NCBI GenBank assembly: GCA_024224155.1
Contig: JAAENP010000114.1
Coordinates: 2,014 to 66,013 of the forward strand
Length of the DNA: 64,000 nucleotides
Direction: 5' to 3'
Source: a bacterium
GTDB taxonomy: Bacteria; Acidobacteriota; Thermoanaerobaculia; Multivoradales; JAHEKO01
In this document: piece by piece, positions 1,448 to 63,166 of the stretch
Position numbering within the stretch: the stretch's first letter is position 1
How the letters are laid out: each line of letters opens with the position of its first letter
The notes under the pieces: model-generated
Told to the model about the DNA's origin: nothing
The model's database searches: none
What the model saw: the letters and a program-made list of their open reading frames with translations, nothing else
Program-made: the position numbers and the translations under genes

Positions 1448-3247
<1,800 letters not shown>

Positions 3248-3312
3248 GCTGGGGAGTCTATCGGGATCCTCTCTCGTCAAGCGAAGTGTCGGCGGCGATT
3301 CGGCAGCTGATT

Positions 3313-3348
3313 CGGTCGAGACCCTTCGCTTCGCTCGAGGGCAAGCGG
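3313..3348 (+). repeat. Intergenic repeat family B, copy 1 (36-nt core)
   Basis: CGGTCGAGACCCTTCGCTTCGCTCGAGGGCAAGCGG is identical to 56559-56594. Weaker similarity continues for about 15 nt downstream (TGATCGACTCCGCT vs AGGTCGAC-CGCT). Confidence 0.85.
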
Positions 3349-3393
3349 TGATCGACTCCGCTGAGCCTCCGAGGCTTCGAAAACCAGTCGGTA

Positions 3394-3418
3394 GGGGACA
3401 CGAAGGAATCGTGTCCCC
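3394..3418. other. Perfect 9-bp hairpin in the lepA / M16 peptidase divergent intergenic region
   Basis: GGGGACACG-AAGGAAT-CGTGTCCCC. A degenerate version of its loop and 3' arm (CGAAGAATCGTG) recurs at 56534-56545, next to the second family B copy. Confidence 0.6.
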
Positions 3419-3557
3419 GATGCCCGAGAACACTCCGGGTCCTCTTGCGTATCAAATCCAGAACCGAGCACAACATGCCCCGCTATACTCGAACCTCTCG
3501 GCGTTCGCCGGCTGCGCCGGTTCCCGGCGCCCCTTTCATCCAAAGGAGACTCTCGAT

Positions 3558-7837: not shown

Positions 7838-8542
7838 GTGAAGATCCAAGGCGAGTACTCATTTCAGGTGCCGCGAGAGAAGGTCTGGGAGGCCGTTCTC
7901 GATCCCAAGGTACTCTCGTCCAGCCTGCCCGGGTTTCAGAGACTCGACACCATCGGTGAGAACGAGTACGAAGGGGCTCTCGAGATCAAGGTCGGACCGG
8001 TACAGGGCGACTTTCAAGGGACCTTGAAGCTCAGCGATCTCCAGCGCCCATCCAGCTACCGCTTCAGCCTCAACGGCATGGGGGCCGCCGGCTTCGTCGA
8101 CGGCGACGGTCTCCTGGTGCTCGAAGAATCCGGCGGCGGCACAAAGCTCCACTACGATCTGGACGCCAGGGTCGGGGGCCGGATCGCGGGAGTCGGCCAG
8201 CGTCTCCTCCACAGCTCGGCGAAGGTCATGGCGCGCCAGACCTTGGAAGGCATCGAGCGCCAGTTCCCGCAGCCGGCACAGGTCAAAGTCGTGACCAAAC
8301 AGGACGCCGCTTCGGCGGCGCCCGAGGAACCGACTGCTGGAGAGACGACCGGTTCCGCGCCGGCCCGGGAGGCCGCCCCGGCCGCACCCGCGCCCCCGAG
8401 CCAGGCCAAGTTCGCCTATACCTTCGCCAAGGGGCTCATGGGCGAGCTGATTCCGCCGTCCGCACGACCCTGGGCCATCAGTATCGCGGTGGTCGCTTAT
8501 ACAATCGTCGTCATTCTGCTCACACGAGCTTGCAGCGGTTAG
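7838..8542 (+). CDS. CoxG/SRPBCC family protein with a C-terminal membrane anchor
   Basis: GTG start. [33 protein letters not shown]...[11 protein letters not shown] is typical of the carbon monoxide dehydrogenase subunit G family. Ala/Pro-rich linker and hydrophobic tail [17 protein letters not shown]. Confidence 0.8.
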
Positions 8543-8571
8543 GCCCCTCGGGCCCGAAAGGAGATCTGCCC

Positions 8572-9045
8572 ATGGGGGTCAACATCTCGGTTGAGATCAA
8601 CGGCACGCTTTACGAAAGACAAGTCGACGCTCGCACTCTGTTGGTGCATTTCCTGCGCGAGGAGCTGAGCCTTACCGGTACCAATGTCGGCTGTGAGACC
8701 AGCCTGTGCGGCGCCTGCACGGTCCACATGGACGGGCTGGCGGTCAAATCCTGTACGCAGCTGGCGGTTCAGGCAGACGGCGCCAAGATCACGACCATCG
8801 AGGGACTGGCCGAGAACGGCAACCTCCACCCAATGCAACAGGCATTCTGGGACGAGCACGGCCTGCAGTGCGGCTACTGCACGCCGGGGATGATCATGGC
8901 CGCAACCAAACTGGTCGAAAACAACCCGCAAGCGAGCGAGCGCGATATCCGCGAGGGTCTCAAGGGCAACCTGTGCCGCTGTACGGGATATCAGAACATC
9001 GTCAAGGCGGTGGCTGCCGCGGCCAAGGCCGGGGGCGCATCATGA
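8572..9045 (+). CDS. Molybdenum hydroxylase small subunit, two [2Fe-2S] clusters (CoxS-like)
   Basis: AAAGGAG RBS. Motifs [19 protein letters not shown] and CRCTGY. The stop overlaps the next start (ATGA). Confidence 0.92.
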
Positions 9046-11402
9046 GCGTGCTCGGAACCTCGATCAAGCGACGCGAGGATCCCGCCCTGATCACCGGCAA
9101 GGGCAAGTACACCGACGACTTCTCGATACCGGGAACGCTCCATGCCGTGATCGTGCGCAGCCCCTTCGGCCACGCCAGAGTCAATCGGACCGATACCTCG
9201 GCTGCTGCGCAAGCAGTGGGCGTTGTGGCAATCTACACCGCCGCGGAACTCGAGGCCAGCGGCACGCCGGGAGTCATACCGACCGCCTGGCTGCTCCCCG
9301 ATCTCAAGACCCCGGTCCACACGCTGTTTGCCACCGATCGGGTGCGCTACGTCGGCCACCCCGTGGCGGTTGTCGTCGCCGAGAGTGCGCCGGCCGGCCA
9401 CGACGCCGCCGGCCTGATCGAAGTCGACTACGAACCGCTACCGGCGGTGGTCGACCCGAAGGCCGCGGCGGCCGATGGAGCACCCCTGCTCTACGACGAG
9501 GCCCCCAGCAACGTCGCCTTCGACTGGGAAGTGGGCGACAAGGAAGCCACGGATGCGGCGTTCGCGGCAGCGGCCACGACCGCGACCGTGACGCTGCGCA
9601 ACAACCGCACGCTGCCCCACGCCATCGAGCCGCGGGCGGCCCTGGCCCAGTGGGACGCCGAGAACGGCAAGCTCACCCTGACCATGACATCCCAGAATCC
9701 CCACGTGCATCGGCTGCTTATGACCATCGCCTCCCTCGGCCTTCCCGAGCACAAGATCCGGGTCATCGCTCCCGAGGTCGGTGGCGGCTTCGGCTCCAAG
9801 ATCCACCACTACGCCGACGAGGCAATCACCGCCTGGTGCGCCATGCAGACCGGGCGGCCCGTCAAATGGACGGCAACGCGGTCCGAGACCAACATGACCG
9901 ACGCTCATGGCCGTGACCACTGGTCGACCGCCGGAATCGCGATCGACTCCGACGGCAAGATCGTTGGCCTTCGCATCGATACCCACGCCGCGATGGGAGC
10001 GTACCTCTCGACTTTTGCGCCGGCGGTGCCGACCTATCTCTATGGAACTCTTTTCTCCGGCCAGTACGACATCCCGGCGATTCACGTTCACGTTCTCGGT
10101 ACCTTCACCAACACGGCACCGGTCGATGCGGTTCGCGGTGCCGGGCGGCCGGAGGCGACCTATGCCGTCGAGCGGCTGATGGATGCCGGCGCGGCGGCGG
10201 TCGGGCTCGACCCGGCCGAATTCCGCCGCCGGAACTTCATCCAGCCGGATGCCTTCCCGTACCAGACCCAGGTCGCGCTGGCGTACGACAGCGGTGACTA
10301 TCCACAGGCCCTGGAGAAGGCCCTCGAGGCGGCGGGCTACGATGACCTGCGGGCAGAACAAGCCAAGCGGCTTGACGACCAGAGCGGTAAAGCAAAGATC
10401 CTCGGCGTCGGGCTTTCGTCCTACATCGAGGCCTGCGGCATCGCGCCCTCGGCGGTGGTGGGCTCGCTCGGCGCCCAGGCGGGATTGTGGGAAAGCGCCA
10501 AGGTCAGGGTGCATCCCTCGGGCAGCGTTACCGTCTACACCGGCTCGTGCGCCCACGGGCAGGGGCACGCGACCACCTTCTCGCAGATCGTCGCCGATCG
10601 GCTCGGAATCGACGTCGACCAGATCGACGTGATCCACGGCGACACCGAAGAGGTGCAGTTCGGCATGGGCACCTATGGCTCGCGCTCGGCGGCGGTCGGT
10701 GGCTCCGCGATCGTCAAATCGCTGGACAAGGTCATCGCCAAGGGCAAGAGAATCGCCGCCCACCTTCTCGAGGCCTCGCCGGACGACATCGAGTTCGAGG
10801 GCGGTGAGTTCAAGGTCAAGGGCTCGCCCGGGCACTCCAAGGCATGGGGGGACGTCGTGCTCAACGCCTATCTCGCCCACAACCTGCCCGAAGACATCGA
10901 GCCGGGACTCGAGGAAACCAGCTTCTACGACCCGGCCAACTTCACCTATCCCTTTGGAACACACATCGCGGTGGTCGAGATCGACCGGGAAACCGGCGAG
11001 ATCGACCTCCTGCGTTATATCGGCGTCGACGACTGCGGCAACCAGATCAACCCGATGATCGTCGAAGGTCAGGTCCACGGCGGCATTGCCCACGGTCTGG
11101 GCCAGGCGCTCTGGGAAGAAGCCGCTTACGACGAGTCGGGGCAACTGGTTTCCGGAACGCTTCTCGACTACGCCCTGCCGCGGGCCCATCACCTGGTCCC
11201 CTACGAGCTCGATTACACGGTGACGCCGTGCCCGCACAACCCGCTGGGCGTCAAGGGCATCGGCGAGGCCGGCGCCATCGCGGCTCCGGCGGCGGTGGCG
11301 AACGCCGTCGGTGACGCGCTCAGAAGCGTCGGCGCCGCACCTATCGACATGCCGTTCACCCCGGAGAAGATCTGGAGAACCCTCCAGGGAGGGGGCGCCT
11401 GA
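9042..11402 (+). CDS. Molybdenum hydroxylase large (molybdopterin-binding) subunit, form II CoxL-like / xanthine dehydrogenase family
   Basis: [27 protein letters not shown]-terminus, about 786 aa. The active-site loop reads [11 protein letters not shown] (AYRGAGR-type, not the AYxCSFR loop of genuine CO dehydrogenase). The ORF-track start at 8706 is an out-of-context extension. Confidence 0.9.
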
Positions 11403-12262
11403 TGTACCCAGCAGAGTTTCAATACCACCGCGCGTCGTCCGCACAGGAAGCTCTCGACCTGCTCGATCAGAACCCCGGGGCCAAGTTTCTGGCCGGAGGC
11501 CACAGCCTGATTCCGATGATGAAGCTGCGCCTGGCGCAGCCGGGCGTCTTGATCGACATCGGACGCCTCGACGAGTTCAAGGGCGTGACCCTGAACGGCG
11601 ACTCGCTCTCTATCGGCTCGCTCACCACGCACGCGGAGATCGCCGGCTCCGCGGAAGTCCGTTCGGGCTGTCCGATTCTCGCGGAAGCCGCCTCCAAGAT
11701 CGCCGACCCACAGGTTCGCAACAAGGGCACCATAGGCGGCAACATCGCGCACGCCGACCCGGCGTCCGACCTTCCGGCCGTGCTGGTCGCGCTCGGAGCC
11801 AAGATTCATTTGCGCAGTCAGGGCGGCGATCGGTCGGTCGCGGCCGCGGACTTCTTCGTCGATCTGCTCACCACCAGCATGGCCGAGAACGAGATCGTGA
11901 CCGAGATCGAGGTGCCCAGGCTGGGTGAGGGCACCGGCTCAGCCTATCTCAAGGTCGAGCACCCCGCCTCCGGCTACGCGGTCTGCGGGGCTGCCGCCGT
12001 CATGACCGTCGAAGGCGATGCCTGTACTTCGGCGAGCCTGGTATTCAACGGCGTCACCGCCACGCCGCTTGCGGCTCTGGACGTTGCCCGAGCCCTGGTC
12101 GCTGCCGGAGTCGGTGACGACGCCATCGAGGCGGCCGTCGATTCGCGGTTGTCGGTGCCTCAGCCGTTGAGCGATCTTCACGCCTCGGGCGAGTACCGAA
12201 CGGCCCTGGCGACCGCCTACGGTAAGCGGGCGCTCAAGAGAGCGCGCGATCGGGCGAGCTGA
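11402..12262 (+). CDS. Molybdenum hydroxylase FAD-binding medium subunit (CoxM-like)
   Basis: The start overlaps the preceding stop (TGATG). FLAGGHSLIPMMKLRLAQP and GTIGGNIAHADP are FAD-binding (PCMH-type) motifs. Confidence 0.9.
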   Translation: MYPAEFQYHRASSAQEALDLLDQNPGAKFLAGGHSLIPMMKLRLAQPGVLIDIGRLDEFKGVTLNGDSLSIGSLTTHAEIAGSAEVRSGCPILAEAASKIADPQVRNKGTIGGNIAHADPASDLPAVLVALGAKIHLRSQGGDRSVAAADFFVDLLTTSMAENEIVTEIEVPRLGEGTGSAYLKVEHPASGYAVCGAAAVMTVEGDACTSASLVFNGVTATPLAALDVARALVAAGVGDDAIEAAVDSRLSVPQPLSDLHASGEYRTALATAYGKRALKRARDRAS

Positions 12263-12279
12263 GGCGCCGCAGGTCGACG

Positions 12280-12591
12280 ATGCGCGACATCCTTCCTGAC
12301 CTCCGGACCTGGCAGAGCCAGGGCAAGTCGGTCGCGCTGGCCACGGTGGTCAAGGCCTGGGGGTCGTCGCCGCGCCCTTTGGGCTCCAAGATGGCGGTGT
12401 CGGCGGACGGTGAGATGGCGGGCTCGGTTTCCGGCGGCTGCGTCGAAGGGGCGGTCGTCGCGCAGGCCCTCGCCGTGATCGCGTCGGGCGAGCCGGCACT
12501 GGTCGAGTACGGTGTGTCCGACGACCTGGCCTGGAGCGTGGGGCTCTCCTGCGGTGGCACCCTCGAGGTCTTTATCGAACGGATCGGTTAG
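12280..12591 (+). CDS. xdhC: XdhC/CoxI family accessory protein, N-terminal domain only
   Basis: ALATVVKAWGSSPRPLGSKMAV...GSVSGGCVEGAV...GLSCGGTLEVFIE is the XdhC_CoxI domain. It ends at TAG 12589-12591. Confidence 0.8.
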   Translation: MRDILPDLRTWQSQGKSVALATVVKAWGSSPRPLGSKMAVSADGEMAGSVSGGCVEGAVVAQALAVIASGEPALVEYGVSDDLAWSVGLSCGGTLEVFIERIG

Positions 12592-12595
12592 GGCC

Positions 12596-13327
12596 TTGAA
12601 GCAAACCATCCTCGAAGAACTAGAGCGGCGGCTCGACGCCCATCAGACGGTGGCGGCTGTCACCGTTCTCGCCGGCCCGCTCGACGGTCAGGCTCTTCTC
12701 GACCGGAACGGTACGGTGATCGCGGGCGGCTTCGAATCGGAGGATCTTGCGGCGACGGTGGCGACCTCGGCTTCGAGCTACCTGGCCGAGATGCGTTCCG
12801 GCCGCGAGTCGATCTCGATCGACGGCGAGGTTCACGATGTCTTTTTCGAGGTCTACCCGCCGCCACCGCAGATCCTCGTGATCGGCGCGGTTCATGTCGC
12901 GATTCACCTAGTCGCGTTCGGCAAACGGCTCGGCTACCGCACGGTGGTGATCGATCCGCGAACCGCCTTCGCGACTCGCGAGCGCTTCGCTGCAGCCGAC
13001 GAGCTTCTGATCGACTGGCCGGCCGAAGCACTCGCGAAGATCTCGATAACCGACAACACCTACTTCGCTCTCCTGGCGCACGATCTCAAGATCGATTTGC
13101 CGGCGATCGAGGTCGCCCTGCGGAGCCCGGCCCGCTACATAGGCGCTCTGGGCTCGAAGAAAACCCACGCGAAAAGGGTGGCGGCACTGGCAGAGGCAGG
13201 CTTCTCGACCAGCGACATCGCTCGGATCCGCAACCCGATCGGCCTCGATCTCGGAGGTCGCAAGGCCGAGGAGATCGCGCTTTCGATCATCGCCGAGATG
13301 AGCGCGGTCCGCCATGGCCGCGGCTGA
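12596..13327 (+). CDS. xdhC: XdhC family accessory protein, C-terminal Rossmann-like domain
   Basis: Different frame from the preceding ORF. Candidate TTG start at 12596. ILVIGAVHVAIHLVAFGKRLGYRTVVIDPR is the XdhC C-terminal NAD-like fold motif. Confidence 0.75.
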   Translation: MKQTILEELERRLDAHQTVAAVTVLAGPLDGQALLDRNGTVIAGGFESEDLAATVATSASSYLAEMRSGRESISIDGEVHDVFFEVYPPPPQILVIGAVHVAIHLVAFGKRLGYRTVVIDPRTAFATRERFAAADELLIDWPAEALAKISITDNTYFALLAHDLKIDLPAIEVALRSPARYIGALGSKKTHAKRVAALAEAGFSTSDIARIRNPIGLDLGGRKAEEIALSIIAEMSAVRHGRG

Positions 13328-13931
13328 CACCGATGCCACCCCCCGGGTGACCGGCATCTTGCTGGCCGCCGGACGCTCGAGCCGCTTCGGCGGTCCTGTG
13401 CCCAAGCAGCTTCACCAGATCGGCGGCCAGAGCCTGGTCCATCGGACGGCTCGCGCCGCGCTGGCTTCCAAGCTCCACCAGATCCTGGTTGTCAGCGGCC
13501 ACTCCGCAGCCGAAGTCGGAGCGGTCCTCGCGGGTCTCGCGGTCGAGGTGGTTCACAATCCGGCTTTCGCCGACGGCCAGTCCACCTCGGTCAAGGCTGG
13601 ACTCTGCCGAGTCGAGCCCGAAGCCAAGGCGGCGATGTTCATTCCGTGCGACCTTCCCCATCTCGACGCCGGAGTCATCGACCGTCTGCCCGAGGCCTAC
13701 GGCGCCTCCGCCGCGGCCATCGTGGTTCCCACTTGTGGGGGCAAGCGCCGTGCGCCGGTGCTGATCGATCGGAGCCTGTTCGCCGAGATCCAAGGCATCC
13801 GCGGCGACCGTGGGGCACGGCAGCTGTTTCCGGACTACGAAGACGACCTCCTCGAGGTGGAGTTTGAATCTTCGGCGCCGTTCGAGGATCTGGATCAAAT
13901 CGAGAACTCCGAGCGCCAAGACCGAGACTGA
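13314..13931 (+). CDS. mocA: MobA-like NTP transferase, probable molybdenum cofactor cytidylyltransferase (MocA)
   Basis: GILLAAGRSSRFGGPVPKQL nucleotidyltransferase motif. It overlaps the xdhC end by 14 nt and is the last gene of the cox-like operon. Confidence 0.8.
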   Translation: MAAADTDATPRVTGILLAAGRSSRFGGPVPKQLHQIGGQSLVHRTARAALASKLHQILVVSGHSAAEVGAVLAGLAVEVVHNPAFADGQSTSVKAGLCRVEPEAKAAMFIPCDLPHLDAGVIDRLPEAYGASAAAIVVPTCGGKRRAPVLIDRSLFAEIQGIRGDRGARQLFPDYEDDLLEVEFESSAPFEDLDQIENSERQDRD

Positions 13932-14419: not shown

Positions 14420-14884
14420 CTACACGAACTCGAGCTCGGTCTCGATCTCCACGCAGTCCTTGAGGGTTCTCGCCACCGGGCAGAAGTCGGCGTGAAACTC
14501 GAGCACACGCGTGGCGGCGGCGCGGTGCTCTTCGCCCAGCTTCAGGTGATAGGTGACGTCAATGCGGCGGATCACCAGAACCTTGCCATTCTTGGCCACC
14601 GTTCCCCGGACCTCCGAGACCAGGTCGCCCTCCTCCAATCGCGGGCCGCGCGCTTCCAGCGCTCCGGCAAAGGTACCGGTCAGTCAGCCGCCGGCGGCGG
14701 CCACGACATAGTCGAGCGTGGTCGCAGTCGCGGGAAAGTCCTCGGGCCCGACGCCGTAGTGCGCCGCGATCTCCGAATGAACGCCGAACATCACCGGCTC
14801 ATCTTCGGCCGGCAGGAAAGCGCGACGAAGCGGCCCACGGATGCGCTCGATGCGGACCCTCGAAGTATAGACGTCGTCACTCAT
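14420..14884 (-). CDS. OsmC-family peroxiredoxin-like protein with an in-frame TGA (14686-14684) at the first conserved Cys position: candidate selenoprotein, or otherwise a pseudogene
   Basis: Track ORFs 14884-14684 and 14638-14420 share one frame. They are separated only by TGA plus 15 sense codons. The joined product (154 aa) reads ...TLDYVVAAAGG-[TGA]-LTGTFAGALEARG...FHADFCPVARTL..., which is the OsmC/Ohr fold pattern with the second Cys (CPV) retained. Confidence 0.7.
14645..14668 (-). promoter_or_regulatory. Candidate bacterial SECIS hairpin
   Basis: The mRNA sequence GCCG-GA-GCGC-UGGAA-GCGC-G-CGGC starts 16 nt after the UGA. The apical loop contains GG and lies about 26-30 nt downstream of the UGA. 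Confidence 0.45.
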
Positions 14885-14905
14885 TCGGATTCTCCCTCCG
14901 GCTCT

Positions 14906-15526
14906 TCATTCTGGATTCTGGAAGCATTCGACCGCACTCTCGTAGAGCTCGCCCAGGGCTCGGCCATCGATGAAAGCATGATTGATCTGGATGCCGACCG
15001 GCACCCAGAGCTCGCCGCGCTCTTCGTAGGGCTTGCCGAATGCAACTCGCGGTGCCGCATCGGTGGGATCGTCGGTGGCATGGGTAAACGTCCGAAACGG
15101 AACTCCCGGGATCGCGGTAAAGAAGATGTAATTGTCAGAGTCTTCCTTGGTCAGGTTCGGCGGTTGATCCGGATCCGGAAGCACGGCTTCGGCGTTGAAG
15201 CGCTCGACGTCGGGCGTGTACTCGAGGTGGGCGAAGCCGAATAGACCACCGGCCGCCGGCACCGTGATCCCCGGGTGAATCGAGTCGTAGAGGACGATGT
15301 CGCCGTCCTTGAGACGATAGCGGAAGTCCTCGAGCGGCTGCATGGCCCGGGTGAAGAAGTAGCAGAGGTTGAGGTAGGTTTTGAAGCCGCGCTCATCCAA
15401 AAAGGCCTTGAGACGGCTAAACTCCAGCGCGAAGGAAACCGAGTAGAACGGATTCCGGTAACCCCGGAAGAACTCGAAGATTTCCCTCCGGTAGTAGTTT
15501 TCTACGACGCCATACCCCACGAACAA
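14906..15526 (-). CDS. Chloramphenicol acetyltransferase-like (CAT fold) acyltransferase family protein
   Basis: 206 aa. The C-terminal IQINHAFIDGRALG resembles the CAT catalytic HHAxxDG segment. TTG start, so the exact start is uncertain. It lies 21 nt upstream of the OsmC gene. Confidence 0.65.
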   Translation of the reverse strand: MFVGYGVVENYYRREIFEFFRGYRNPFYSVSFALEFSRLKAFLDERGFKTYLNLCYFFTRAMQPLEDFRYRLKDGDIVLYDSIHPGITVPAAGGLFGFAHLEYTPDVERFNAEAVLPDPDQPPNLTKEDSDNYIFFTAIPGVPFRTFTHATDDPTDAAPRVAFGKPYEERGELWVPVGIQINHAFIDGRALGELYESAVECFQNPE

Positions 15527-21563: not shown

Positions 21564-23903
21564 CTAGTCCTGCTGGGCCCGGGTCAGCTCCCACAGTCGA
21601 CAGGGCTTCAGCGGGATCTCCAGGATCTCGATTCCGCTCTCGGCCAGCGCATCCTCGACAGCCTGGGCAAACAGCGGGCCCACCGGAATGGCACCGGCCT
21701 CGCCGGCCCCCTTGATGCCCAGGGGGTTGAGCGGCGAAGGTGTGGTCTGGTGACCGCTCTCGATACGTGGCACATCGAGCGCCGTCGGCAGCAGGTAGTC
21801 CATGAACGAAGCGTTCATGATCTGACCGTCTTCACTGAATACGACTTCTTCATAGAACGCGTTGCCGATTCCCTGCGCGACGCCGCCGTGGATCTGACCG
21901 TCCAGAATGAGCGGGTTGATGACCTCGCCACAGTCGTGCACGACGACGTAGCGCTGGATCTCGACGTCCAGACTCTCCGGGTCGATCTCGATAATCATGG
22001 CGTGTACGCCCGCCGCGGTGGCGCCTCGCTCCGGTCCGAAGTAGTCGGTAGCCTCCAGACCGGGCTCGGTTCCGGGTTCTACCGCTCCCCTCATCGGATT
22101 GGCCTTGAGCGCCAACTCGCCCAGCGGCAGTTCCTTGCCCGGCACGCCCTTGACTCGCACCTTGCCGTCCACGAGCTCGAGATCGGTCTCGGCGACTTCC
22201 AGCTCCCGGCCGGCAAACGCCAGGATCTTCTTGCGCACCGCCTTGGCGGCGGCATGGATCGCGTTTCCAGCGACCACGGCACCTCGAGACGCAAAGGTAC
22301 CGGCGCCCCAATGGAACAGGTCCGTGTCTCCGGTCGTGACTTCGACATCGCGAACATCGACGCCCACCTGGTCGGCGACCACCTGGGCAAACGACGTCAT
22401 GTGGCCCTGGCCCTGAGTGCCGATCCCGGTGGCGACCGCCACCTTCCCGGAAGCCTGGACCTGCACTCTCGCCCCCTCGTAGGGCCCGATTCCGGTCCCT
22501 TCGACGTAGGCGACCACTCCGATGCCGACCAGCTTGCCCTGGGCCCGCAGCGCCGGCTGGGTCTCTTGTATGAACTTCTGGTAGCCGATCTTCTCCAGCG
22601 CCTGGTCCAGAATCGGCTCATAGTTGCCGCTGTCGTAGACCAGCGGAGCGAAATCTTGATAGATGATCTCGTGATTGACCGGAAAAGACTCCGGGGCGAG
22701 GAAGTTGCGCCGGCGAATCTCCGCGCGGTCGATCCCGAGCTCACGCGCCGCGATATCCAGCAACCGCTCCATGACGAAGACGCCGTGCTGGCGCCCCGCG
22801 CCACGGTACGGAGTCACGATCGGCTTGGTCGTGAACACCGCCGTGAACTCGCTGGCGTAGTTGGGAACGTCGTAGCACCCCAGCAGCGTGCACTGACTGT
22901 TGATCGGGACGGTCAGGCCGTAGGGAGCGTAGGCGCCCGTGTCGTGAAGAAACGTGTCCTTGACTCCGAGGATCTTGCCGTCTCGGGTCACGGCGATCTC
23001 GGCATCGTGGATCTGGCCGCGTTCATGGGTGGTTGCGACGAAGTTCTCTTCCCGATCCTCGATCCACTTGACCGGTCGCTGGAGCGCCACCGAGGCCCAC
23101 GGAATCAGCACCTCTTCCGGGTAGAACATCATGATCTTGGGCCCAAAACCGCCGCCGATGAATGGCGCGATCACGCGCACTTGGCTCTCGGAGAGCCCGA
23201 GCATGGCCGCGATCCCGTTGCGGATCGGAATCGGAGCCTGGGTCGTGTCCCACATGGTCAACCGCTGGCCGCGGTCGTCCCAGTCGGCGACGACGCCGCG
23301 ATTCTCCATCGCGGCCGCGACGCCGTGATCGTAGGTGAAGCGACGGGCCAGAACCACGTCCGCCTCGGCCCGCGCGGATTCGTAATCGCCCTTCTGTTGG
23401 AAGACCCTCGCAGCTTCGTTCGTGTCGAGATCATCGTGGACCCGCGGAGCGCCCTCTTCGAGCGCCGCCTCGAGATCCACCACCGCATCGAGCGGCTCGT
23501 ACCTGACGAAGATCTCGGCCACCGCGTCCTCGGCAACGTAGCGATTCTCAGCCACGACCATCACCACGGGTTCGCCGACGTGGTGCACCTTGCCCTTGGC
23601 CAGGGGCACCTGGGTGCGCTGGTTGAATCGAATTCCCTCGATCGGCGGCGGCGGCACGAGAAGCGGCCCCGGCTGCCAGTAGTCCCCCAGATCCTCGGCC
23701 GTGTAGACCGCGATGACTCCCTCCCGCCCCAGGGCTCTCTGGGTATCGATGGCTCCGAGACGAGCGTGAGCGAACGGGCTGCGAACAAACGCCACGTGGA
23801 CCATGTCCTGGAGCTCGACATCGTCCACAAAAAGCGCGCGGCCGGTCAGAAGCCGCGGGTCTTCGTTGCGAGTGATGCGTTGGCCGAAGCTACGAGTCGA
23901 CAT
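21564..23903 (-). CDS. Orphan molybdenum hydroxylase large subunit (xanthine dehydrogenase / form II CoxL-like)
   Basis: MSTRSFGQRITRNEDPRLLTGRALFVDD N-terminus, 779 aa. The active-site loop is TPYRGAGRQHG. There are no adjacent S/M subunit genes. The start lies 4 nt after the upstream peptidase stop. Confidence 0.88.
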   Translation of the reverse strand: MSTRSFGQRITRNEDPRLLTGRALFVDDVELQDMVHVAFVRSPFAHARLGAIDTQRALGREGVIAVYTAEDLGDYWQPGPLLVPPPPIEGIRFNQRTQVPLAKGKVHHVGEPVVMVVAENRYVAEDAVAEIFVRYEPLDAVVDLEAALEEGAPRVHDDLDTNEAARVFQQKGDYESARAEADVVLARRFTYDHGVAAAMENRGVVADWDDRGQRLTMWDTTQAPIPIRNGIAAMLGLSESQVRVIAPFIGGGFGPKIMMFYPEEVLIPWASVALQRPVKWIEDREENFVATTHERGQIHDAEIAVTRDGKILGVKDTFLHDTGAYAPYGLTVPINSQCTLLGCYDVPNYASEFTAVFTTKPIVTPYRGAGRQHGVFVMERLLDIAARELGIDRAEIRRRNFLAPESFPVNHEIIYQDFAPLVYDSGNYEPILDQALEKIGYQKFIQETQPALRAQGKLVGIGVVAYVEGTGIGPYEGARVQVQASGKVAVATGIGTQGQGHMTSFAQVVADQVGVDVRDVEVTTGDTDLFHWGAGTFASRGAVVAGNAIHAAAKAVRKKILAFAGRELEVAETDLELVDGKVRVKGVPGKELPLGELALKANPMRGAVEPGTEPGLEATDYFGPERGATAAGVHAMIIEIDPESLDVEIQRYVVVHDCGEVINPLILDGQIHGGVAQGIGNAFYEEVVFSEDGQIMNASFMDYLLPTALDVPRIESGHQTTPSPLNPLGIKGAGEAGAIPVGPLFAQAVEDALAESGIEILEIPLKPCRLWELTRAQQD

Positions 23904-31024: not shown

Positions 31025-32323
31025 CTAGCTCGAGCTTCTCGCCAGCGCTCGCTCGATCTCGAGGCCCCAGCTGAAGAGCCGCTCGTCCTGTCGCGACCGA
31101 GCCGCGACCTGGAGACCGATCGGCAAACCACCGGTGCCGGTCCCGGCCGGAATCGCGAGCGTCGGTAATCCGCAGTGCGTCCAGGGAAGATTCATGATCG
31201 GATCGCCGGTGGAGCGGAGTCCGTGGGGCGCGACTCCGGGCGCCGCCGGCGAAATCCACAGATCGAGGCCCCAGGTCGTCATCAGAGACTCGAGCTCGTC
31301 GCGCAACGACTCGCACCCGACGAGCGCGGTCTGCAGCTCGGAGTCCGAGATCCTCGAGCCCTCCTCGATCAAAAGCGCCGTCTTGGGATGGTAGAGATCT
31401 TGAAACCGTGAGTACCATTGTGCGTGAACCCTCGCCGCCTCCGCGGCGACTATGGCGCCATGGCGCACCTCGATCGCCTCGAAGTCCGCCATGACCTCGA
31501 CTCGGCGCACGTCGAAACCGGCACCTGTCAGGTGCTGGCACAGTTCGCGAAACCAACTGCGAGCCTCGCTTCCGGCGCGGCGCAGATAGGGACCGCCGGG
31601 AATTCCCAACACCGGGCGCCGCTCCTCGTAGAGCCTCTCCCAGCCTTCGCAAACCACCGCGGCGACGCGCTCGGCACCGGCAACGTCCGGTGCGAAGAAG
31701 CCGATGTGGTCGACCGACGGCGCCAGCGGAATGACGCCCTCGCGGGAAGCTCGATCGTAGGTGGGCTTGAAGCCCACGACGCCACAGTAGGAGGCCGGTC
31801 TCGAGATCGAACCGATCGTCTGAGTTCCCAGTGCGAGTGGACACAGGCCCGCCGCAACTGCCGCGGCGGAACCGGAAGACGAGCCGCCCGGTGTATGAGC
31901 CGGATCGTGCGGGTTCTTGGTCGAAGCGGGCGCGAAATAGGCGAACTCGGTGGTAGCGGTCTTGCCGAGAATCAGCGCGCCGGACCGGCGCAACCGAGTG
32001 ACCGCTTTCGCCTCCGGCCCCGCGAGCTCCTCCGGTGGCAAGCGGCTGCCGCCGGCCGTCGGAAAGCCGTCAACGTGAAATATGTCTTTGACTCCCACGG
32101 GAAGTCCGAAGAGCGGGGGCCGGGGAGTGCCCTGAGGGAATCGCTCGAGGAGGTCCCGCGCGTCTCGCCGCAGGCGCTCGAAACGTCCTTCCTCCGGGAC
32201 GAAGGCATGCAGCTTGGGCTCGCGCTCCCGGAACAGCGCTTCCAGCTCCTCGAGATAGTCGGTCAGTGCCACGGCCCCGGAGTGCAAGGAAGCGCTGGTG
32301 CTGCCAAGGTCGGTTGTCTTCAT
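31025..32323 (-). CDS. Amidase signature (AS) family amidase
   Basis: GGSSSGSAAAVAAGLCPLALGTQTIGSISRPASYCGVVGFKPT, the Ser-cisSer-Lys AS signature. The start overlaps the upstream stop (ATGA). Confidence 0.88.
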   Translation of the reverse strand: MKTTDLGSTSASLHSGAVALTDYLEELEALFREREPKLHAFVPEEGRFERLRRDARDLLERFPQGTPRPPLFGLPVGVKDIFHVDGFPTAGGSRLPPEELAGPEAKAVTRLRRSGALILGKTATTEFAYFAPASTKNPHDPAHTPGGSSSGSAAAVAAGLCPLALGTQTIGSISRPASYCGVVGFKPTYDRASREGVIPLAPSVDHIGFFAPDVAGAERVAAVVCEGWERLYEERRPVLGIPGGPYLRRAGSEARSWFRELCQHLTGAGFDVRRVEVMADFEAIEVRHGAIVAAEAARVHAQWYSRFQDLYHPKTALLIEEGSRISDSELQTALVGCESLRDELESLMTTWGLDLWISPAAPGVAPHGLRSTGDPIMNLPWTHCGLPTLAIPAGTGTGGLPIGLQVAARSRQDERLFSWGLEIERALARSSS

Positions 32324-32805
32324 GCGCTAGCGCTTCGCATTCGCTCCGCGGCCAGCAGCACCGCATCGACAATGTGCTGATATCCGGTGCATCGGCAGAG
32401 ATTGCCCGAAAGCGCCGCACGCACTTCCGCCTCGGTCGGGTTCTGGTTGTTTTCCAGAAACGGCACCATGGTCATCAGGATCCCGGCGGTGCAGAAACCG
32501 CATTGCAGAGCGTGCGCGTCGCGAAACGCGGTCTGGACAGGGTGCAGCTCGTCGACCGAGGGCGCCAGCCCCTCGACGGTGGCGAGCTTGCGCCCATCGG
32601 ACTGCACGGCAAAGAGCAGACAGGACCGCACCGGCGCTCCGTCCAGAAGCACCGTGCAGGCTCCGCACACACCGTGCTCGCATCCGACGTGGGTTCCGGT
32701 GAGACCCAGCTCGTGGCGCAGAAAATCCGAAAGCAGCTGGCGGGATTCGACCTCGCGCTCGTAGGCTCGGCCGTTGACCTCGGTGGAAACGACGTGCCGG
32801 CTCAT
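32320..32805 (-). CDS. Molybdenum hydroxylase [2Fe-2S] small subunit
   Basis: ATG at 32805 preceded by GAAGGTGG. Motifs CEHGVCGACTV, QCGFCTAG and CRCTGY. Confidence 0.9.
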   Translation of the reverse strand: MSRHVVSTEVNGRAYEREVESRQLLSDFLRHELGLTGTHVGCEHGVCGACTVLLDGAPVRSCLLFAVQSDGRKLATVEGLAPSVDELHPVQTAFRDAHALQCGFCTAGILMTMVPFLENNQNPTEAEVRAALSGNLCRCTGYQHIVDAVLLAAERMRSASA

Positions 32806-32809
32806 GACT

Positions 32810-33688: not shown

Positions 33689-33778
33689 GCCGCAACCCGA
33701 GTTCTGAAAAACGATACCGAGACTTGTTTGCTCAAGTGGCTACACTAGCAAAATGTTAGCGTTCACAGGAGGCCTTTG

Positions 33779-49796: not shown

Positions 49797-52070
49797 ATGC
49801 GAGCCCCAACCGACAAGCAAACCAATCTGGTCCTCGTCGGTGGTGGTCATTCGCACGTCCAGGTGCTCGAAGGCTTCGCCATGGAGCCGCCTCCGAACAC
49901 GCGGATCACGCTGATTGTCGACCGGCCGGTGGCAATGTACTCGGGCATGGTCCCGGGGTTCGTCGCGGGCCAGTACAAACAGGAAGAGCTCGAGATCGAC
50001 GTGCTGCCGCTCGCTCGTCGAATTGGTGCGCGAGTCATCATCGCGCGCGCCATCAGAATAGAGGCCGAGGAGAAACGAGTTGTTCTCCAGGGTCGGCCAC
50101 CGGTACCGTTCGAGCTCGCGTCGATCAACATCGGCTCCACCGTTGCCGGCCTCTCGACCCCCGGCGTGCGAGAGCACGCCATCCCGACCCGGCCGATCAC
50201 CGGGTTCGTTTCGAGGCTCGACTCCCTGTTCGACGAGTTCCGTGCAAGCAATGCCACCGAGTGTGTGCGCATTGTGGTTGCAGGCGCCGGCGCCGGCGGC
50301 GTCGAAGTGGCTTTCGCGCTCGACCACCGCCTGCGAGAACTGGGGCGCAAGGTCGACGTCACCGTCATCGAGTCCGGACCCGAGATCCTGGCGGGCTACT
50401 CGGCCGGCATGCGTCGCCGAGCCGAACGCGCCGCAGGCCAGAGAGACATCAAGATCGTGGCCGGCCAACGCATCGATCGCGTCGAGGCCGACCGCGTCTT
50501 CCTGAAGCAAGCCGGCGCAAGCTCCAAATCCGAGCAGCCGTTCGATCTCCTGCTCTGGGTGACGGGCGCGGTCAGCCATCCGTTGTTTCGCGACTCGAAC
50601 CTGCCCACCGACGAGCGCGGTTTCGTCAAGATCCGCTCGACCCTTCAACTCGAGGATCACGACCACATCTTTGCCGTCGGCGATTGCTCGACCCTGACTC
50701 GATATCCCCGGACGCCCAAGGCGGGCGTCTACGCGGTTCGCCAAGGTCCGGTGCTGACCACGAATCTCCGCCGCCTGCTCGCGGGCGAAGCCCTGCTCGA
50801 CAGATACAGGCCACAGCACGACTTTCTGACCCTGATCAACACCGGAGACGGCGGCGCGATCGGCGGCAAGTGGTTTCTTTCCTTCGAAGGTGAATGGGTG
50901 TTCAGGCTCAAGGACCGAATCGACCGGAAGTTCATGTACCGCTTTCAGCCTCTCGACCACCCCGGGAACGAGACGGCCTTCGACTCCGCGGGCATGAACG
51001 CTGGCACGCTCGAGGACGGTGACTCGGAAGTACTCTGCGGCGGTTGCGCCGCCAAGCTCGGCCAGCTCGCCCTGGAGCGTGCCCTGTCGCGGCTGCCACC
51101 GGGAAGCGAGGACAGCTCGGTAGAGCTGGGTATGGCCGGCGCCGACGACGCCGCTTGTTACTCGGCTCCCGGAGGGCAACGCATCGTCTCGAGCGTCGAT
51201 CAGTTCCGATCCTTCACCGACGATGCGTATCTGGTCGGCAGGGTCGCCGCGATCAACGCCGCCTCCGATCTCTTGGCCAAGGGCATCGAGCCTCGATTCG
51301 CACAGGCACTCGTGGCGCTTCCCGAGCGCGATTCCGGCCCGGAGCAAGAGGAGACCCTGTTCCAGCTCCTAGCCGGAGCGCAGGCGGCCTTCGATGAGAT
51401 CGGCGTCACCCTGCTCGGCGGTCACACGATGACCGCCGCCCAGCTTCAGCTCGGCTTTCACCTCGAAGGTTTCGCCGACAACGACCAGCGGCTGCTCGTG
51501 CAAGCCCGGCTCGAGGCCGGACAGCGGTTGATCCTCTCGAAGGCCCTGGGTACCGGAGTGCTCATGCGGGCCGACATGCGCGGCGAGCTTAGAGGTCCCT
51601 GGTTCGAGCAGGCGCTCGCCTCCATGTTGCGGCTGAACCGCGACGCCGTCGCGGTAGCCCGCCGATTCGGCGCTCGCGCCGCGACCGACGTCACCGGCTT
51701 CGGTCTGGCGGGTCACTTGGCGGGCATGCTCCGCGCCGCCGATCTCGCCGCCACCATCGACGTGCGCTCCCTGCCGGCACTTCCCGGCAGCCTCGAGCTC
51801 CTCGAGACCGGCCTGCGCAGCACCTTCCACGAGGACAATGCCAAAGCCGCCCGCGGCATGCAGATCGAGCCGGAAGCCCGCCGACATCCACACTTTCCCC
51901 TGCTCTTCGATCCCCAAACCTCGGGCGGCTTGCTCTTCGGCGTCCCTGCCGACCGCGCCGAAGCGGCTCTCGACGAGCTCCTGGCGTCGGGCCACACGGC
52001 GGCCATCATCGGCACGACCGGCAAGGCCGAGGCCATCCACCGGATCCGTATCTCGACCTCCTTAGACTAG
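49797..52070 (+). CDS. selD: FAD-dependent pyridine nucleotide-disulfide oxidoreductase (NDH-2-like) fused to selenide, water dikinase (SelD)
   Basis: N-terminal LVLVGGGHSH and VVAGAGAGGVEVAF Rossmann motifs. From about residue 400: VLCGGCAAKLGQ (Cys-type SelD active-site loop), DDAACY, LLGGHTM, DVTGFGLAGHL and DPQTSGGLL (AIR-synthase-like SelD fold). Confidence 0.85.
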   Translation: MRAPTDKQTNLVLVGGGHSHVQVLEGFAMEPPPNTRITLIVDRPVAMYSGMVPGFVAGQYKQEELEIDVLPLARRIGARVIIARAIRIEAEEKRVVLQGRPPVPFELASINIGSTVAGLSTPGVREHAIPTRPITGFVSRLDSLFDEFRASNATECVRIVVAGAGAGGVEVAFALDHRLRELGRKVDVTVIESGPEILAGYSAGMRRRAERAAGQRDIKIVAGQRIDRVEADRVFLKQAGASSKSEQPFDLLLWVTGAVSHPLFRDSNLPTDERGFVKIRSTLQLEDHDHIFAVGDCSTLTRYPRTPKAGVYAVRQGPVLTTNLRRLLAGEALLDRYRPQHDFLTLINTGDGGAIGGKWFLSFEGEWVFRLKDRIDRKFMYRFQPLDHPGNETAFDSAGMNAGTLEDGDSEVLCGGCAAKLGQLALERALSRLPPGSEDSSVELGMAGADDAACYSAPGGQRIVSSVDQFRSFTDDAYLVGRVAAINAASDLLAKGIEPRFAQALVALPERDSGPEQEETLFQLLAGAQAAFDEIGVTLLGGHTMTAAQLQLGFHLEGFADNDQRLLVQARLEAGQRLILSKALGTGVLMRADMRGELRGPWFEQALASMLRLNRDAVAVARRFGARAATDVTGFGLAGHLAGMLRAADLAATIDVRSLPALPGSLELLETGLRSTFHEDNAKAARGMQIEPEARRHPHFPLLFDPQTSGGLLFGVPADRAEAALDELLASGHTAAIIGTTGKAEAIHRIRISTSLD

Positions 52071-63081: not shown

Positions 63082-63166
63082 GCCGAAGTGGCGGAACTGG
63101 TAGACGCGCACGGTTGAGGGCCGTGTGGGGCAACCCGTGCCGGTTCGACTCCGGCCTTCGGCACCA
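63082..63166 (+). tRNA. tRNA-Leu (anticodon GAG), type II with a long variable arm and encoded CCA
   Basis: Acceptor GCCGAAG/CTTCGGC, anticodon arm CACGG-TTGAGGG-CCGTG, variable arm GTGGGGCAACCCGTG, T-arm CCGGTTCGACTCCGG, then ACCA. The position after secG is a common arrangement. Confidence 0.9.

What the first reader, a model, noticed from the sequence alone, without database searches (positions are those of the whole stretch)
14420..14884. In-frame UGA at the catalytic-Cys position of an OsmC-family protein, with a SECIS-like hairpin: candidate selenoprotein
Two minus-strand track ORFs (14884-14684 and 14638-14420) lie in the same frame. They are separated only by TGA (14686-14684) and 15 sense codons. 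Read through, they give a normal-length (154 aa) OsmC/Ohr-fold protein.

The TGA sits in ...LDYVVAAAGG-[TGA]-LTGTFAGALEARG.... OsmC-family proteins carry their first conserved, peroxide-reactive Cys at that point. The second conserved Cys is retained (FHADFCPVARTL).

Sixteen nt after the UGA the mRNA can form GCCG-GA-GCGC-UGGAA-GCGC-G-CGGC (14668-14645). Its G-containing apical loop lies roughly 26-30 nt from the UGA, which fits the geometry expected of bacterial SECIS elements.

A SelD gene lies in the same window (49797-52070). From memory, OsmC-like selenoproteins have been predicted in selenoproteome surveys, but they are rare and uncharacterised, and automatic annotation would miss this one or call it a pseudogene.
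Basis: partly seen in the sequence, partly recalled or inferred. Interest (0 to 1): 0.72.

Follow-up and report, generated by a model that had tools for sequence, protein, structure and literature searches.

The report
Selenocysteine-containing OsmC-like peroxidase gene
This is a real gene for a small antioxidant-type (OsmC-fold) enzyme whose catalytic cysteine is replaced by selenocysteine, encoded by an in-frame UGA; it belongs to a widespread subfamily that public annotation still cuts in two, although selenoproteins of this fold have been known since 2005.

Summary
On the minus strand, 14884-14420 is one 154-codon frame with a single TGA (14686-14684), a good ribosome-binding site and a TAG stop.

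The joined protein matches Pfam OsmC. A Cys homologue models confidently as an OsmC/Ohr fold. The TGA column aligns with the first conserved (peroxidatic) Cys of solved OsmC proteins, and the CPV Cys is kept.

In 160 homologous loci from species-representative genomes of more than 10 phyla, 159 carry TGA at that column and one carries TAA. A Terriglobia/Bryobacterales clade has TGC/TGT there.

The hairpin after the UGA (14668-14645, loop UGGAA) meets the published bacterial SECIS constraints. Its codons are almost frozen at synonymous sites in the UGA genes (0.06 bits) but vary freely in the Cys genes (1.4-1.8 bits).

TGA is also the commonest ordinary stop in the window, so the genetic code is not reassigned. 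A genuine SelD fusion is present. selA, selB and tRNA-Sec are not in the window.

The protein is not a member of the catalogued OsmC-like selenoprotein family (NCBIfam NF041052: 15 bits against a cut-off of 95). It represents a distinct subfamily that no NCBIfam model covers.

Verdict: a genuine selenoprotein gene and a new member of a known kind. Interest is moderate to low.

The parts
14420..14884 (-). Complete selenoprotein gene: 154 codons (ATG to TAG) for an OsmC-superfamily protein with Sec at residue 67.
   Evidence: Single frame. Pfam OsmC PF02566 E 3.5e-12. About 75 full-length homologues of 154-160 aa. GC by codon position 0.70/0.45/0.81, like the other genes in the window.
14684..14686 (-). 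In-frame UGA, read as selenocysteine (residue 67). It sits at the position of the peroxidatic Cys of OsmC.
   Evidence: 159 TGA and 1 TAA at this column in 160 related loci. TGC/TGT in 25 Cys-clade loci. The PDB profile alignment puts the column on the Cys of 1ukk and 1ml8.
14645..14668 (-). SECIS-like hairpin. Lower stem GCCG/CGGC (14668-14665 with 14648-14645), internal loop GA/G, upper stem GCGC/GCGC (14662-14659 with 14653-14650), apical loop UGGAA (14658-14654).
   Evidence: Folds as drawn, -13.3 kcal/mol. 25 nt lie between the UGA and the apical loop. Meets the bSECIS constraints quoted in PMC13188914. The codons forming it are invariant at synonymous sites in 146 Sec genes. Covariance model 54.2 bits (the window sequence was in the training set).
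14480..14482 (-). TGC codon of Cys135 (FCPVAR), the presumed resolving cysteine.
   Evidence: C135, P136 and V137 are invariant in 35 homologues. They align with CPVSRAL of T. thermophilus OsmC 1ukk.
14892..14899 (-). Ribosome-binding site GGAGGGAG, 7 nt upstream of the ATG.
   Evidence: Read from the sequence.
14906..15526 (-). Upstream gene on the same strand, 21 nt from the ATG: a CatA-like O-acetyltransferase. Probably co-transcribed. No functional link is shown.
   Evidence: NCBIfam CatA-type hits below cut-off (74.6 bits against 270). This neighbour is not conserved across the other loci.
49797..52070 (+). Selenophosphate synthetase SelD fused to an N-terminal pyridine-nucleotide-disulfide oxidoreductase (Cys form, CGGCAAK). 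It would supply the selenium donor for Sec synthesis.
   Evidence: TIGR00476 selD 258.5 bits (cut-off 125). TIGR03169 Nterm_to_SelD 393.7 bits (cut-off 310). Pfam Pyr_redox_2 + AIRS + AIRS_C.

Best explanation
The locus is one intact gene for a 154-residue OsmC/Ohr-fold protein in which the first conserved, peroxide-reactive cysteine is replaced by selenocysteine (U67).

How the UGA is read: during translation the UGA at 14686-14684 is not read as stop. The mRNA hairpin that begins 15 nt after it (apical loop UGGAA, 25 nt downstream) acts as a bacterial SECIS element. It recruits SelB-GTP-Sec-tRNA(Sec), which inserts Sec. Selenophosphate for charging comes from the SelD fusion encoded 35 kb away.

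What the protein does: by analogy with OsmC and Ohr, the selenolate of U67 would reduce a hydroperoxide and become a selenenic acid. Cys135 (CPV motif) would resolve it to a selenenylsulfide. A dithiol donor (lipoyl protein or thioredoxin-type) would then reduce that bond.

Shown here: an intact frame, a conserved UGA, a Cys/Sec pairing at the catalytic column, an RNA-level constraint on the hairpin, the OsmC fold, and SelD.

Inferred: the actual insertion of Sec in this organism, the peroxidase chemistry, and the reductant.
For: 1. One frame, a ribosome-binding site and a proper stop.
2. Fold and catalytic column. Pfam OsmC E 3.5e-12. The AlphaFold model of the 52%-identical Cys homologue P0055 has pLDDT 95.8, and its best Foldseek hits are all OsmC/Ohr (2onf, 1nye, 1qwi, 1ukk; TM about 0.7). 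A profile search of the PDB aligns the UGA column with the Cys of 1ukk and 1ml8, and CPV with CPVS.
3. Conserved UGA. TGA is at the same column in 159 of 160 loci from two genome scans covering more than 10 phyla. Database proteins showing W there are TGA in the DNA.
4. Cys counterparts. Homologues with TGC/TGT at the column form a separate clade.
5. RNA-level constraint. Across 49 conserved codon columns with four or more synonymous codons, in 146 distinct Sec genes, codon entropy is 1.2-2.3 bits. The exceptions are residues 68 (0.84) and 79 (1.10) and the hairpin codons: residue 74 at 0.75 and residues 75, 76 and 78 at 0.06 each (GCG, CTG, GCG). The same residues in the Cys clade give 1.37 and 1.77 bits.
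6. SECIS constraints. The hairpin meets all four published bSECIS constraints (loop 3-9 nt, stem of at least 4 bp, G in the first two loop positions, 16-37 nt spacing, MFE at or below -7.5).
7. Translation continues past the UGA. Against the closest relatives, synonymous differences exceed non-synonymous ones (19-23 against 13-17 in 87 codons) and the stop position is kept.
8. No reassignment. TGA is the commonest ordinary stop in the window (22 of 46 predicted genes).
9. Selenium machinery. The SelD fusion passes its curated cut-off. selA is present in five genomes that carry this gene, and lies about 1.8 kb from it in two Chloroflexota MAGs.
Against: - selA, selB and tRNA-Sec are absent from the 64-kb window. 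The rest of this genome could not be examined, so the organism's ability to decode Sec is inferred from SelD and from relatives.
- The hairpin's stability is not significantly better than shuffled sequence (z -1.75 and +0.9).
- The stem shows no double-sided covariation, because it hardly varies. Support for the structure therefore rests on position-specific synonymous conservation, not on compensatory changes.
- In the 42-nt context a competing hairpin (nt 8-23 after the UGA) can take up the 5' arm of the lower stem.
- No Rfam family matched.
- No peroxidase assay or Se-labelling exists for any member of the family.
- No conserved redox-partner gene lies nearby.
Confidence: 0.87

Rival explanations
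1. Pseudogene or assembly error: an OsmC-family gene inactivated by a TGC/TGT-to-TGA change, or a miscalled base.
For: The window does contain at least one apparent frameshift: an XdhC-family gene split over two frames at 12280-12591 and 12512-13327. Errors or decay therefore do occur on this contig. Raw reads are not available.
Against: The same TGA is present in 159 of 160 independent assemblies from more than 10 phyla. The frame, length and stop are intact. Synonymous differences outnumber non-synonymous ones downstream of the UGA. A hairpin conserved at synonymous sites follows it.
Confidence: 0.02
2. UGA is decoded as a standard amino acid (Trp, Gly or Cys), either through a reassigned genetic code or through a suppressor tRNA, and not as selenocysteine.
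For: Several database records translate the codon as W, and one as G. No tRNA-Sec, selA or selB is seen in the window.
Against: - The W and G calls are artefacts of gene calling on short contigs: the DNA has TGA, and the record does not translate to the stored protein under table 11.
- TGA ends 22 of 46 predicted genes in this window.
- The carriers belong to phyla that use the standard code.
- Real homologues have Cys, never Trp, at the column.
- A position-specific downstream hairpin would not be needed for a reassigned codon.
- SelD is present.
Confidence: 0.04
3. Translation really stops at the UGA. The locus would then make a 66-residue N-terminal peptide, and perhaps a separately initiated C-terminal OsmC fragment, as public annotation currently shows it.
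For: NCBI records annotate 85-90-residue 'OsmC family protein' fragments or 'hypothetical protein' halves at such loci. A TTG start exists 15 codons after the UGA.
Against: - The 15 codons between the UGA and the TTG are among the most conserved of the protein (LTGTFxGALEAR). In the model they form part of the central helix that carries the active site.
- The TTG has no conserved start or ribosome-binding site.
- Cys homologues are single chains of the same length.
- Neither half alone is an OsmC fold.
Confidence: 0.04

Closest known systems
OsmC-like selenoprotein of the marine selenoproteome surveys (Zhang, Fomenko & Gladyshev 2005, Sargasso Sea, PMC1088965; GOS 2008, PMC2398784; COG1765/YhfA type; NCBIfam NF041052 'OsmC-related (seleno)protein')
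   Same: The fold superfamily is the same (Pfam PF02566). Sec sits at the homologous column, preceded by the small-residue motif (LAYIVAGIGF-U against LDYVVAAAGG-U). A second Cys lies about 68 residues later. A hairpin with G in the apical loop follows the UGA inside the coding region. Cys-containing homologues exist.
   Different: - Only 23% identity over a gapped alignment, BLASTP E 0.006.
- The window protein scores 15.1 bits on NF041052 (cut-off 95), whereas the Sargasso sequence scores 157.4.
- The motif after Sec is U-L-T-G-T (invariant Gly at +3), not UxxT.
- The resolving-Cys motif is F-C-P-V-A-R, not G-C-F-A-E.
- The protein is 154 aa with a conserved 55-residue N-terminal region (FGVHSE), against 137 aa.
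- The SECIS sequence is different.
- The carriers are mostly Acidobacteriota, Desulfobacterales, Chloroflexota and Rubrobacteraceae rather than marine plankton.
OsmC and Ohr thiol peroxidases (E. coli OsmC 1qwi/1nye, T. thermophilus OsmC 1ukk, Ohr 1n2f/1usp/6ebg)
   Same: Same fold (Foldseek probability 1.00, TM 0.65-0.72 for the Cys homologue). Two conserved redox residues at equivalent positions. The second lies in a CPV motif, as in OsmC.
   Different: Sequence identity is 11-18%. A single-sequence search of the PDB finds nothing. The peroxidatic residue is Sec. No NCBIfam OsmC or Ohr subfamily model is reached (TIGR03562 14.6 bits against 85.8; TIGR03563 16.6 against 166). The Arg/Glu catalytic partners of Ohr were not mapped here.
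Bacterial SECIS elements (E. coli fdhF type; bSECIS consensus model of Zhang & Gladyshev 2005, as summarised in PMC13188914)
   Same: The hairpin lies inside the coding sequence directly after the UGA. It has a small apical loop with GG at loop positions 2-3 and a closing U-A (N1-G-G-N-N2 pattern). There are 25 nt between the UGA and the loop, and the MFE is -13.3 kcal/mol.
   Different: There is no primary-sequence similarity to fdhF. The element here is a near-invariant GC palindrome (GCGCGC-UGGAR-GCGCGY) across phyla. In the window's clade, C24 is replaced by A and a different lower helix (GCCG/CGGC) is used. SelB binding has not been tested.

Membership tests
Bacterial selenoprotein gene (general definition) | An in-frame UGA within an otherwise intact, conserved ORF, with conservation continuing downstream of the UGA. 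| tested here: met
   One frame of 154 codons. The sequence downstream of the UGA is conserved, with more synonymous than non-synonymous differences. TGA at the same column in 159 of 160 loci.
Bacterial selenoprotein gene (general definition) | Homologues with Cys aligned to the UGA. | tested here: met
   P0055, P0072, P0074, P0092, P0100, P0112 and P0116 have GGC-LTGT. All 25 loci of the Cys clade (mostly Terriglobia/Bryobacterales) carry TGC/TGT.
Bacterial selenoprotein gene (general definition) | A SECIS hairpin downstream of the UGA that meets the bSECIS model: loop 3-9 nt, upper stem 4-16 bp, G in the first two loop positions, 16-37 nt spacing, MFE at or below -7.5 kcal/mol. | tested here: met
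   Criteria taken from PMC13188914 Fig. 2. The window has loop UGGAA (5 nt, G at position 2), a 4-bp upper stem plus a 4-bp lower stem, 25 nt spacing and -13.3 kcal/mol. Synonymous-site constraint is specific to the Sec genes. There is no covariation, because the stem is invariant.
Bacterial selenoprotein gene (general definition) | The host encodes the Sec machinery: selA, selB, selC (tRNA-Sec) and selD. | tested here: inconclusive
   selD is present and passes TIGR00476. selA, selB and tRNA-Sec are not in the 64-kb window. selA was found in five other genomes that carry the gene.
Bacterial selenoprotein gene (general definition) | Physical incorporation of selenium (75Se labelling or mass spectrometry). 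| not testable with these tools
   An experiment is required.
NCBIfam NF041052 OsmC-related (seleno)protein (the catalogued OsmC-like selenoprotein, UxxT) | Score at or above the curated cut-off of 95 bits. | tested here: not met
   15.1 bits, E 0.016. The positive control, Sargasso sequence AACY01145085, scores 157.4 bits.
NCBIfam NF041052 OsmC-related (seleno)protein (the catalogued OsmC-like selenoprotein, UxxT) | UxxT redox motif. | tested here: not met
   The window has U-L-T-G-T. Position +3 is Gly, conserved in every Sec-form locus examined (Thr falls at +2 and +4). The literature motif is UxxT.
Pfam PF02566 OsmC-like superfamily | Domain score at or above the gathering threshold of 27.5 bits. 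| tested here: met
   47.1 bits, E 3.5e-12, residues 57-150.
Pfam PF02566 OsmC-like superfamily | OsmC/Ohr fold with the two redox residues at equivalent positions. | tested here: met
   The test used the Cys homologue P0055 (52% identical), not the window protein itself: pLDDT 95.8, and the top PDB matches are all OsmC/Ohr. The Sec column and the CPV Cys align with the two Cys of 1ukk.
OsmC (TIGR03562) / SACOL1771 (TIGR03563) / Ohr peroxiredoxin subfamilies | Score at or above the subfamily cut-off. | tested here: not met
   14.6 bits against 85.8, and 16.6 against 166.15. No Ohr model was hit.
OsmC (TIGR03562) / SACOL1771 (TIGR03563) / Ohr peroxiredoxin subfamilies | Hydroperoxide reductase activity. 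| not testable with these tools
   A biochemical assay is required.

The most novel reading that the evidence does not exclude
This may be an uncatalogued second selenoprotein family within the OsmC superfamily.

- Sec, not Cys, is the majority state.
- It is found in hundreds of species-level genomes of more than 10 phyla, including cultured Rubrobacter.
- Its SECIS core (GCGCGC-UGGAR-GCGCGY, embedded in the GALEAR/GALAAR motif) is almost invariant across those phyla.
- Public annotation systematically splits or truncates it, because no curated model flags it.

The reviews of 2022 and 2026 list only one OsmC-like family (UxxT). However, the 2007 Olavius Delta-1 survey counted three 'OsmC-like' selenoproteins, and one of the loci found here (L077) is from a genome labelled Olavius-associated proteobacterium Delta 1, so the family may already have been seen and pooled under that name.
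Probability: 0.45. Interest if true: 0.45.

Novelty: new member of a known kind. Interest (0 to 1): 0.35.

Why it matters
- Annotation. Hundreds of genomes carry this gene as two fragments or as a 'pseudogene'. A curated model with a Sec exception, like NF041052, would fix this. It would also add a marker of Sec use in Acidobacteriota, Chloroflexota, Desulfobacterales and Rubrobacteraceae.
- Biology. The family offers a natural Sec/Cys pair in the OsmC/Ohr peroxidase fold, for which no selenoenzyme has been characterised. It also offers an unusually uniform SECIS that could serve as a portable element, or as a probe of SelB recognition across phyla.
- Limits. The finding does not change what is known about how selenoproteins work.

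Tried and rejected
- Rfam scan of the whole window at gathering thresholds: no hits.
- Thermodynamics alone. The MFE of 14620-14690 is no better than shuffles (z +0.9), and the 24-mer gives z -1.75. I rejected this as evidence either way in 65% GC sequence.
- Covariation. On 140 distinct sequences there were zero double-sided changes, and the shuffles were uninformative because the stem is invariant. Only the Actinomycetota variant L069/L145 forms a different hairpin at the same place (GCCGGGGCC-CUCGC-GGCCCGGC), shifted by one column.
- Single-sequence search of the PDB: no hit. A profile was needed.
The Cys homologue P0055 was modelled instead.
- Exact look-up of the window's SelD protein, to find the source genome: not on record.
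- tblastn with E. coli SelA and SelB against the window. The only hit was a weak GTPase-domain match at 2705-3217, next to a DTPGH GTPase motif.
- GC3-based scan for further TGA-interrupted genes in the window: only antisense or adjacent-gene artefacts. The covariance model found no second copy of this SECIS type in the window.
- Test of whether SelD might serve the selenium-dependent molybdenum hydroxylase trait instead, given the two Mo-hydroxylase clusters with XdhC and MocA nearby. No YqeB/YqeC was found among the proteins scanned, and the hydroxylases score far below the Se-dependent XDH cut-offs.
- Neighbourhood clustering over 81 loci: no conserved partner gene.
- Supplement of the 2007 Olavius paper, to see whether this subfamily was among its three OsmC-like selenoproteins: not held.

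Full report
**1. Observation**

The minus strand of 14884-14420 is a single reading frame of 154 sense codons. It is interrupted once, by TGA at 14686-14684.

A GGAGGGAG ribosome-binding site lies 7 nt before the ATG, and the gene ends in TAG. Its GC content by codon position (0.70/0.45/0.81) matches the other genes of this 65% GC window. The hairpin GCCG-GA-GCGC-UGGAA-GCGC-G-CGGC is at 14668-14645.

**2. What the protein is**

With Cys written at the UGA, the protein matches Pfam OsmC (PF02566, 47.1 bits, E 3.5e-12).

- A single-sequence search of the PDB found nothing.
- A profile of 35 homologues reached T. thermophilus OsmC (1ukk), E. coli YhfA (1ml8) and Ta0195 (2onf). It put the UGA column on their conserved Cys, and FCPVAR on CPVSRAL of 1ukk.
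- An AlphaFold model of the 52%-identical Cys homologue P0055 is confident (pLDDT 95.8). Its best 50 Foldseek matches in the PDB are all OsmC/Ohr-family (OsmC-like) proteins, with TM-scores about 0.7 for the best matches.
- In that model the redox column lies inside the long central helix, and the CPV Cys lies at the kink between the last two helices.

**3. The UGA is conserved, not accidental**

The protein database search returned three kinds of hit:

- about 75 full-length homologues of 154-160 aa;
- many half-length hits that end at ...AAAGG or begin at (M)TGTF, which is the signature of gene callers stopping at a shared TGA;
- full-length records with W, and one with G, at the column.

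The W records proved to be TGA in the DNA: L001 does not translate to the stored protein under table 11.

I kept the best 80 loci of each. Of these 160 loci, 159 carry TGA at the same column and one carries TAA.

The carriers are Acidobacteriota/Thermoanaerobaculia (the closest, 82-86% amino-acid identity), Desulfobacterales, Chloroflexota, NC10, Poribacteria, Acidimicrobiia, Rubrobacteraceae (including the isolate Rubrobacter taiwanensis), Gemmatimonadota, Nitrospinota and Polyangia.

A separate clade, mostly Terriglobia and Bryobacterales (25 loci), has TGC/TGT at the column. So do scattered metagenomic homologues.

Downstream of the UGA, the window differs from its closest relatives by more synonymous than non-synonymous codon changes (19-23 against 13-17 in 87 codons). 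The stop codon position is kept. The downstream part is therefore translated.

**4. The hairpin**

The published bacterial SECIS model requires four things (PMC13188914):

- an apical loop of 3-9 nt;
- an upper stem of 4-16 bp;
- G in the first two loop positions (typically N1-G-[G/U]-N-N2);
- 16-37 nt between the UGA and the loop, and an MFE at or below -7.5 kcal/mol.

The window element has loop U-G-G-A-A, a 4-bp GCGC upper stem, a 2x1 internal loop, a 4-bp lower stem, 25 nt spacing and -13.3 kcal/mol. It meets all four.

Stability alone does not distinguish it from shuffled GC-rich sequence. The stem also shows no compensatory covariation, because it hardly varies: 91.7% of cells are paired and there are no double-sided changes.

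The decisive evidence is the behaviour of synonymous sites.

- In 146 distinct Sec genes, 49 conserved codon columns with four or more synonymous codons have codon entropies of 1.2-2.3 bits.
- The exceptions are residue 68 (0.84), residue 79 (1.10) and the hairpin codons: residue 74 at 0.75 bits, and residues 75, 76 and 78 at 0.06 bits each (GCG 145/146, CTG 145/146, GCG 142/143).
- In the Cys clade, which often encodes the same peptide (GALEAR), the same positions have 1.37 and 1.77 bits.

The constraint therefore acts on the RNA, and only where a UGA has to be recoded.

Most family members have a continuous stem, GCGCGC-UGGAR-GCGCGY. In the window's Acidobacteriota clade the Gly codon GGC has become GGA, which breaks one pair. 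Codons GCC (+6) and GGC (+13) are fixed there and provide the alternative lower helix GCCG/CGGC. One Actinomycetota variant (L069/L145) has an unrelated GC-rich hairpin at the same place.

A covariance model of the element scores the window at 54.2 bits. It scores most Cys-clade sites at 10-30 bits, and nothing else in the window above noise.

**5. Decoding capacity**

- TGA terminates 22 of 46 predicted genes in the window, so the code is not reassigned.
- 49797-52070 encodes a fusion of a pyridine-nucleotide-disulfide oxidoreductase (TIGR03169, 393.7 bits, cut-off 310) with SelD (TIGR00476, 258.5 bits, cut-off 125).
- No tRNA-Sec, selA or selB lies in the window.
- The window's proteins are not on record, so the rest of the genome could not be reached.
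- Among other carriers, selA lies about 1.8 kb from the gene in two Chloroflexota MAGs (L070; L163/L190). It is on the same chromosome or in the same MAG in three more (OZ241372.1, JALZCF01, JBFKII01).
- I also asked whether SelD might serve the selenium-dependent molybdenum-hydroxylase trait instead, since two CODH/xanthine-dehydrogenase-type clusters with XdhC and MocA are nearby. No YqeB or YqeC was found among the proteins scanned, and the hydroxylases fall far below the Se-dependent models.

**6. Mechanism**

Shown: the gene is intact, the UGA sits at the catalytic Cys column, and an RNA element with SECIS properties follows it.

Inferred: SelB-mediated insertion of Sec at residue 67. Also inferred, by analogy with OsmC and Ohr, is the chemistry: attack of the selenolate on a hydroperoxide, resolution by Cys135 to a selenenylsulfide, and re-reduction by a dithiol donor.

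No conserved partner gene was found that would identify the reductant. The upstream CatA-like acetyltransferase (14906-15526) is specific to this contig's neighbourhood.

**7. Comparison with what is known**

OsmC-like selenoproteins were reported from the Sargasso Sea in 2005 (3 sequences, motif UxxT, COG1765). They appear again in the GOS and Olavius surveys and in the 2022 and 2026 reviews, always as a single family.

I took the Sargasso sequence AACY01145085 from that paper's supplement. It scores 157.4 bits on NCBIfam NF041052 'OsmC-related (seleno)protein' (cut-off 95). The window protein scores 15.1 bits. The two share 23% identity (E 0.006), although their Sec columns coincide.

The motif here is U-L-T-G-T, with an invariant Gly at +3, and F-C-P-V for the second Cys. 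No other NCBIfam model reaches its cut-off. NCBI records annotate only fragments.

The window gene therefore works like the catalogued OsmC-like selenoprotein but is not a member of that family. It belongs to a sequence-distinct, widespread subfamily that is predominantly in the Sec form.

Whether that subfamily was already counted is open. The 2007 survey reported three 'OsmC-like' selenoproteins in the Olavius Delta-1 symbiont, and one of my loci (L077) is from a genome labelled Olavius-associated proteobacterium Delta 1. I could not check this.

**8. Verdict**

This is a genuine bacterial selenoprotein gene of a known kind: Sec replacing the peroxidatic Cys of an OsmC-fold protein.

Novelty is limited to the subfamily and its annotation gap. 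Interest is moderate to low for a specialist, but the finding is useful for annotation and as a Sec/Cys model in the OsmC/Ohr fold.

Noticed in passing
window 12280-12591 (+) and 12512-13327 (+): An XdhC-family maturation factor is split over two overlapping frames. The first ORF covers NF045664 model positions 5-100 and the second covers 108-345. This looks like a frameshift (assembly error or pseudogene) near 12512-12591.
   Followed up: partly
window 49797-52070 (+): SelD is fused to an N-terminal pyridine-nucleotide-disulfide oxidoreductase domain (TIGR03169 + TIGR00476, both above cut-off). It carries Cys, not Sec, in the CGGCAAK motif. It scores below the cut-off of the 'fusion_not_SelD' model TIGR04369 (422 against 700).
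   Followed up: yes
window 7838-13931 (+); 21564-23903 (-); 32320-33688 (-): There are two CO-dehydrogenase/xanthine-dehydrogenase-type molybdenum hydroxylase gene sets: a CoxG-like protein, an 898-aa large subunit, an FAD subunit, XdhC and MocA on the + strand (7838-13931); and, on the - strand, a second large subunit that just misses the CODH group-5 cut-off (937 against 950) plus separate 2Fe-2S and FAD subunits. None reaches the selenium-dependent XDH models. AllG- and FdrA-like genes, a cyclase and an amidase lie between the minus-strand pieces.
   Followed up: partly
L172:255-302 and L183:1699-1746: Two Cys-form homologues (codons TGT and TGC) still carry the GCGCUGGAAGCGCGC hairpin. They score 40.3 and 37.6 bits on the SECIS covariance model, well above the other Cys-clade sites. 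This may be a fossil SECIS left after a recent Sec-to-Cys replacement.
   Followed up: no
L093 (Rubrobacteraceae MAG DASQSI01; paralogues L084, L091, L093, L142): One MAG carries four paralogues of the gene. One of them has TAA instead of TGA at the Sec column, while the downstream hairpin is intact. It may be a recent inactivation or a sequencing error.
   Followed up: no
P0001 and many other JGI/Logan records; P0038; L001:449-922: Database proteins of this family show W (one shows G) at the Sec column. The DNA has TGA there. The gene callers evidently switched to translation table 4 or 25 on short contigs, which produces spurious 'Trp' homologues.
   Followed up: yes
L070:1-1092 and L190:2836-4017 (same contig as L163): In two Chloroflexota MAGs, selA (selenocysteine synthase) lies about 1.8 kb upstream of the OsmC-like selenoprotein gene, on the same strand.
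   Followed up: partly
window 33776-34198 (+); 63082-63166 (+): Ordinary housekeeping features: ArfB ribosome-rescue hydrolase (148.5 bits, cut-off 100) and the only tRNA in the window, tRNA-Leu(GAG). Separately, an ORF at 1448-3433 (-) carries a DTPGH GTPase motif; it explains the weak SelB tblastn hit but was not scanned against any family library.
   Followed up: no
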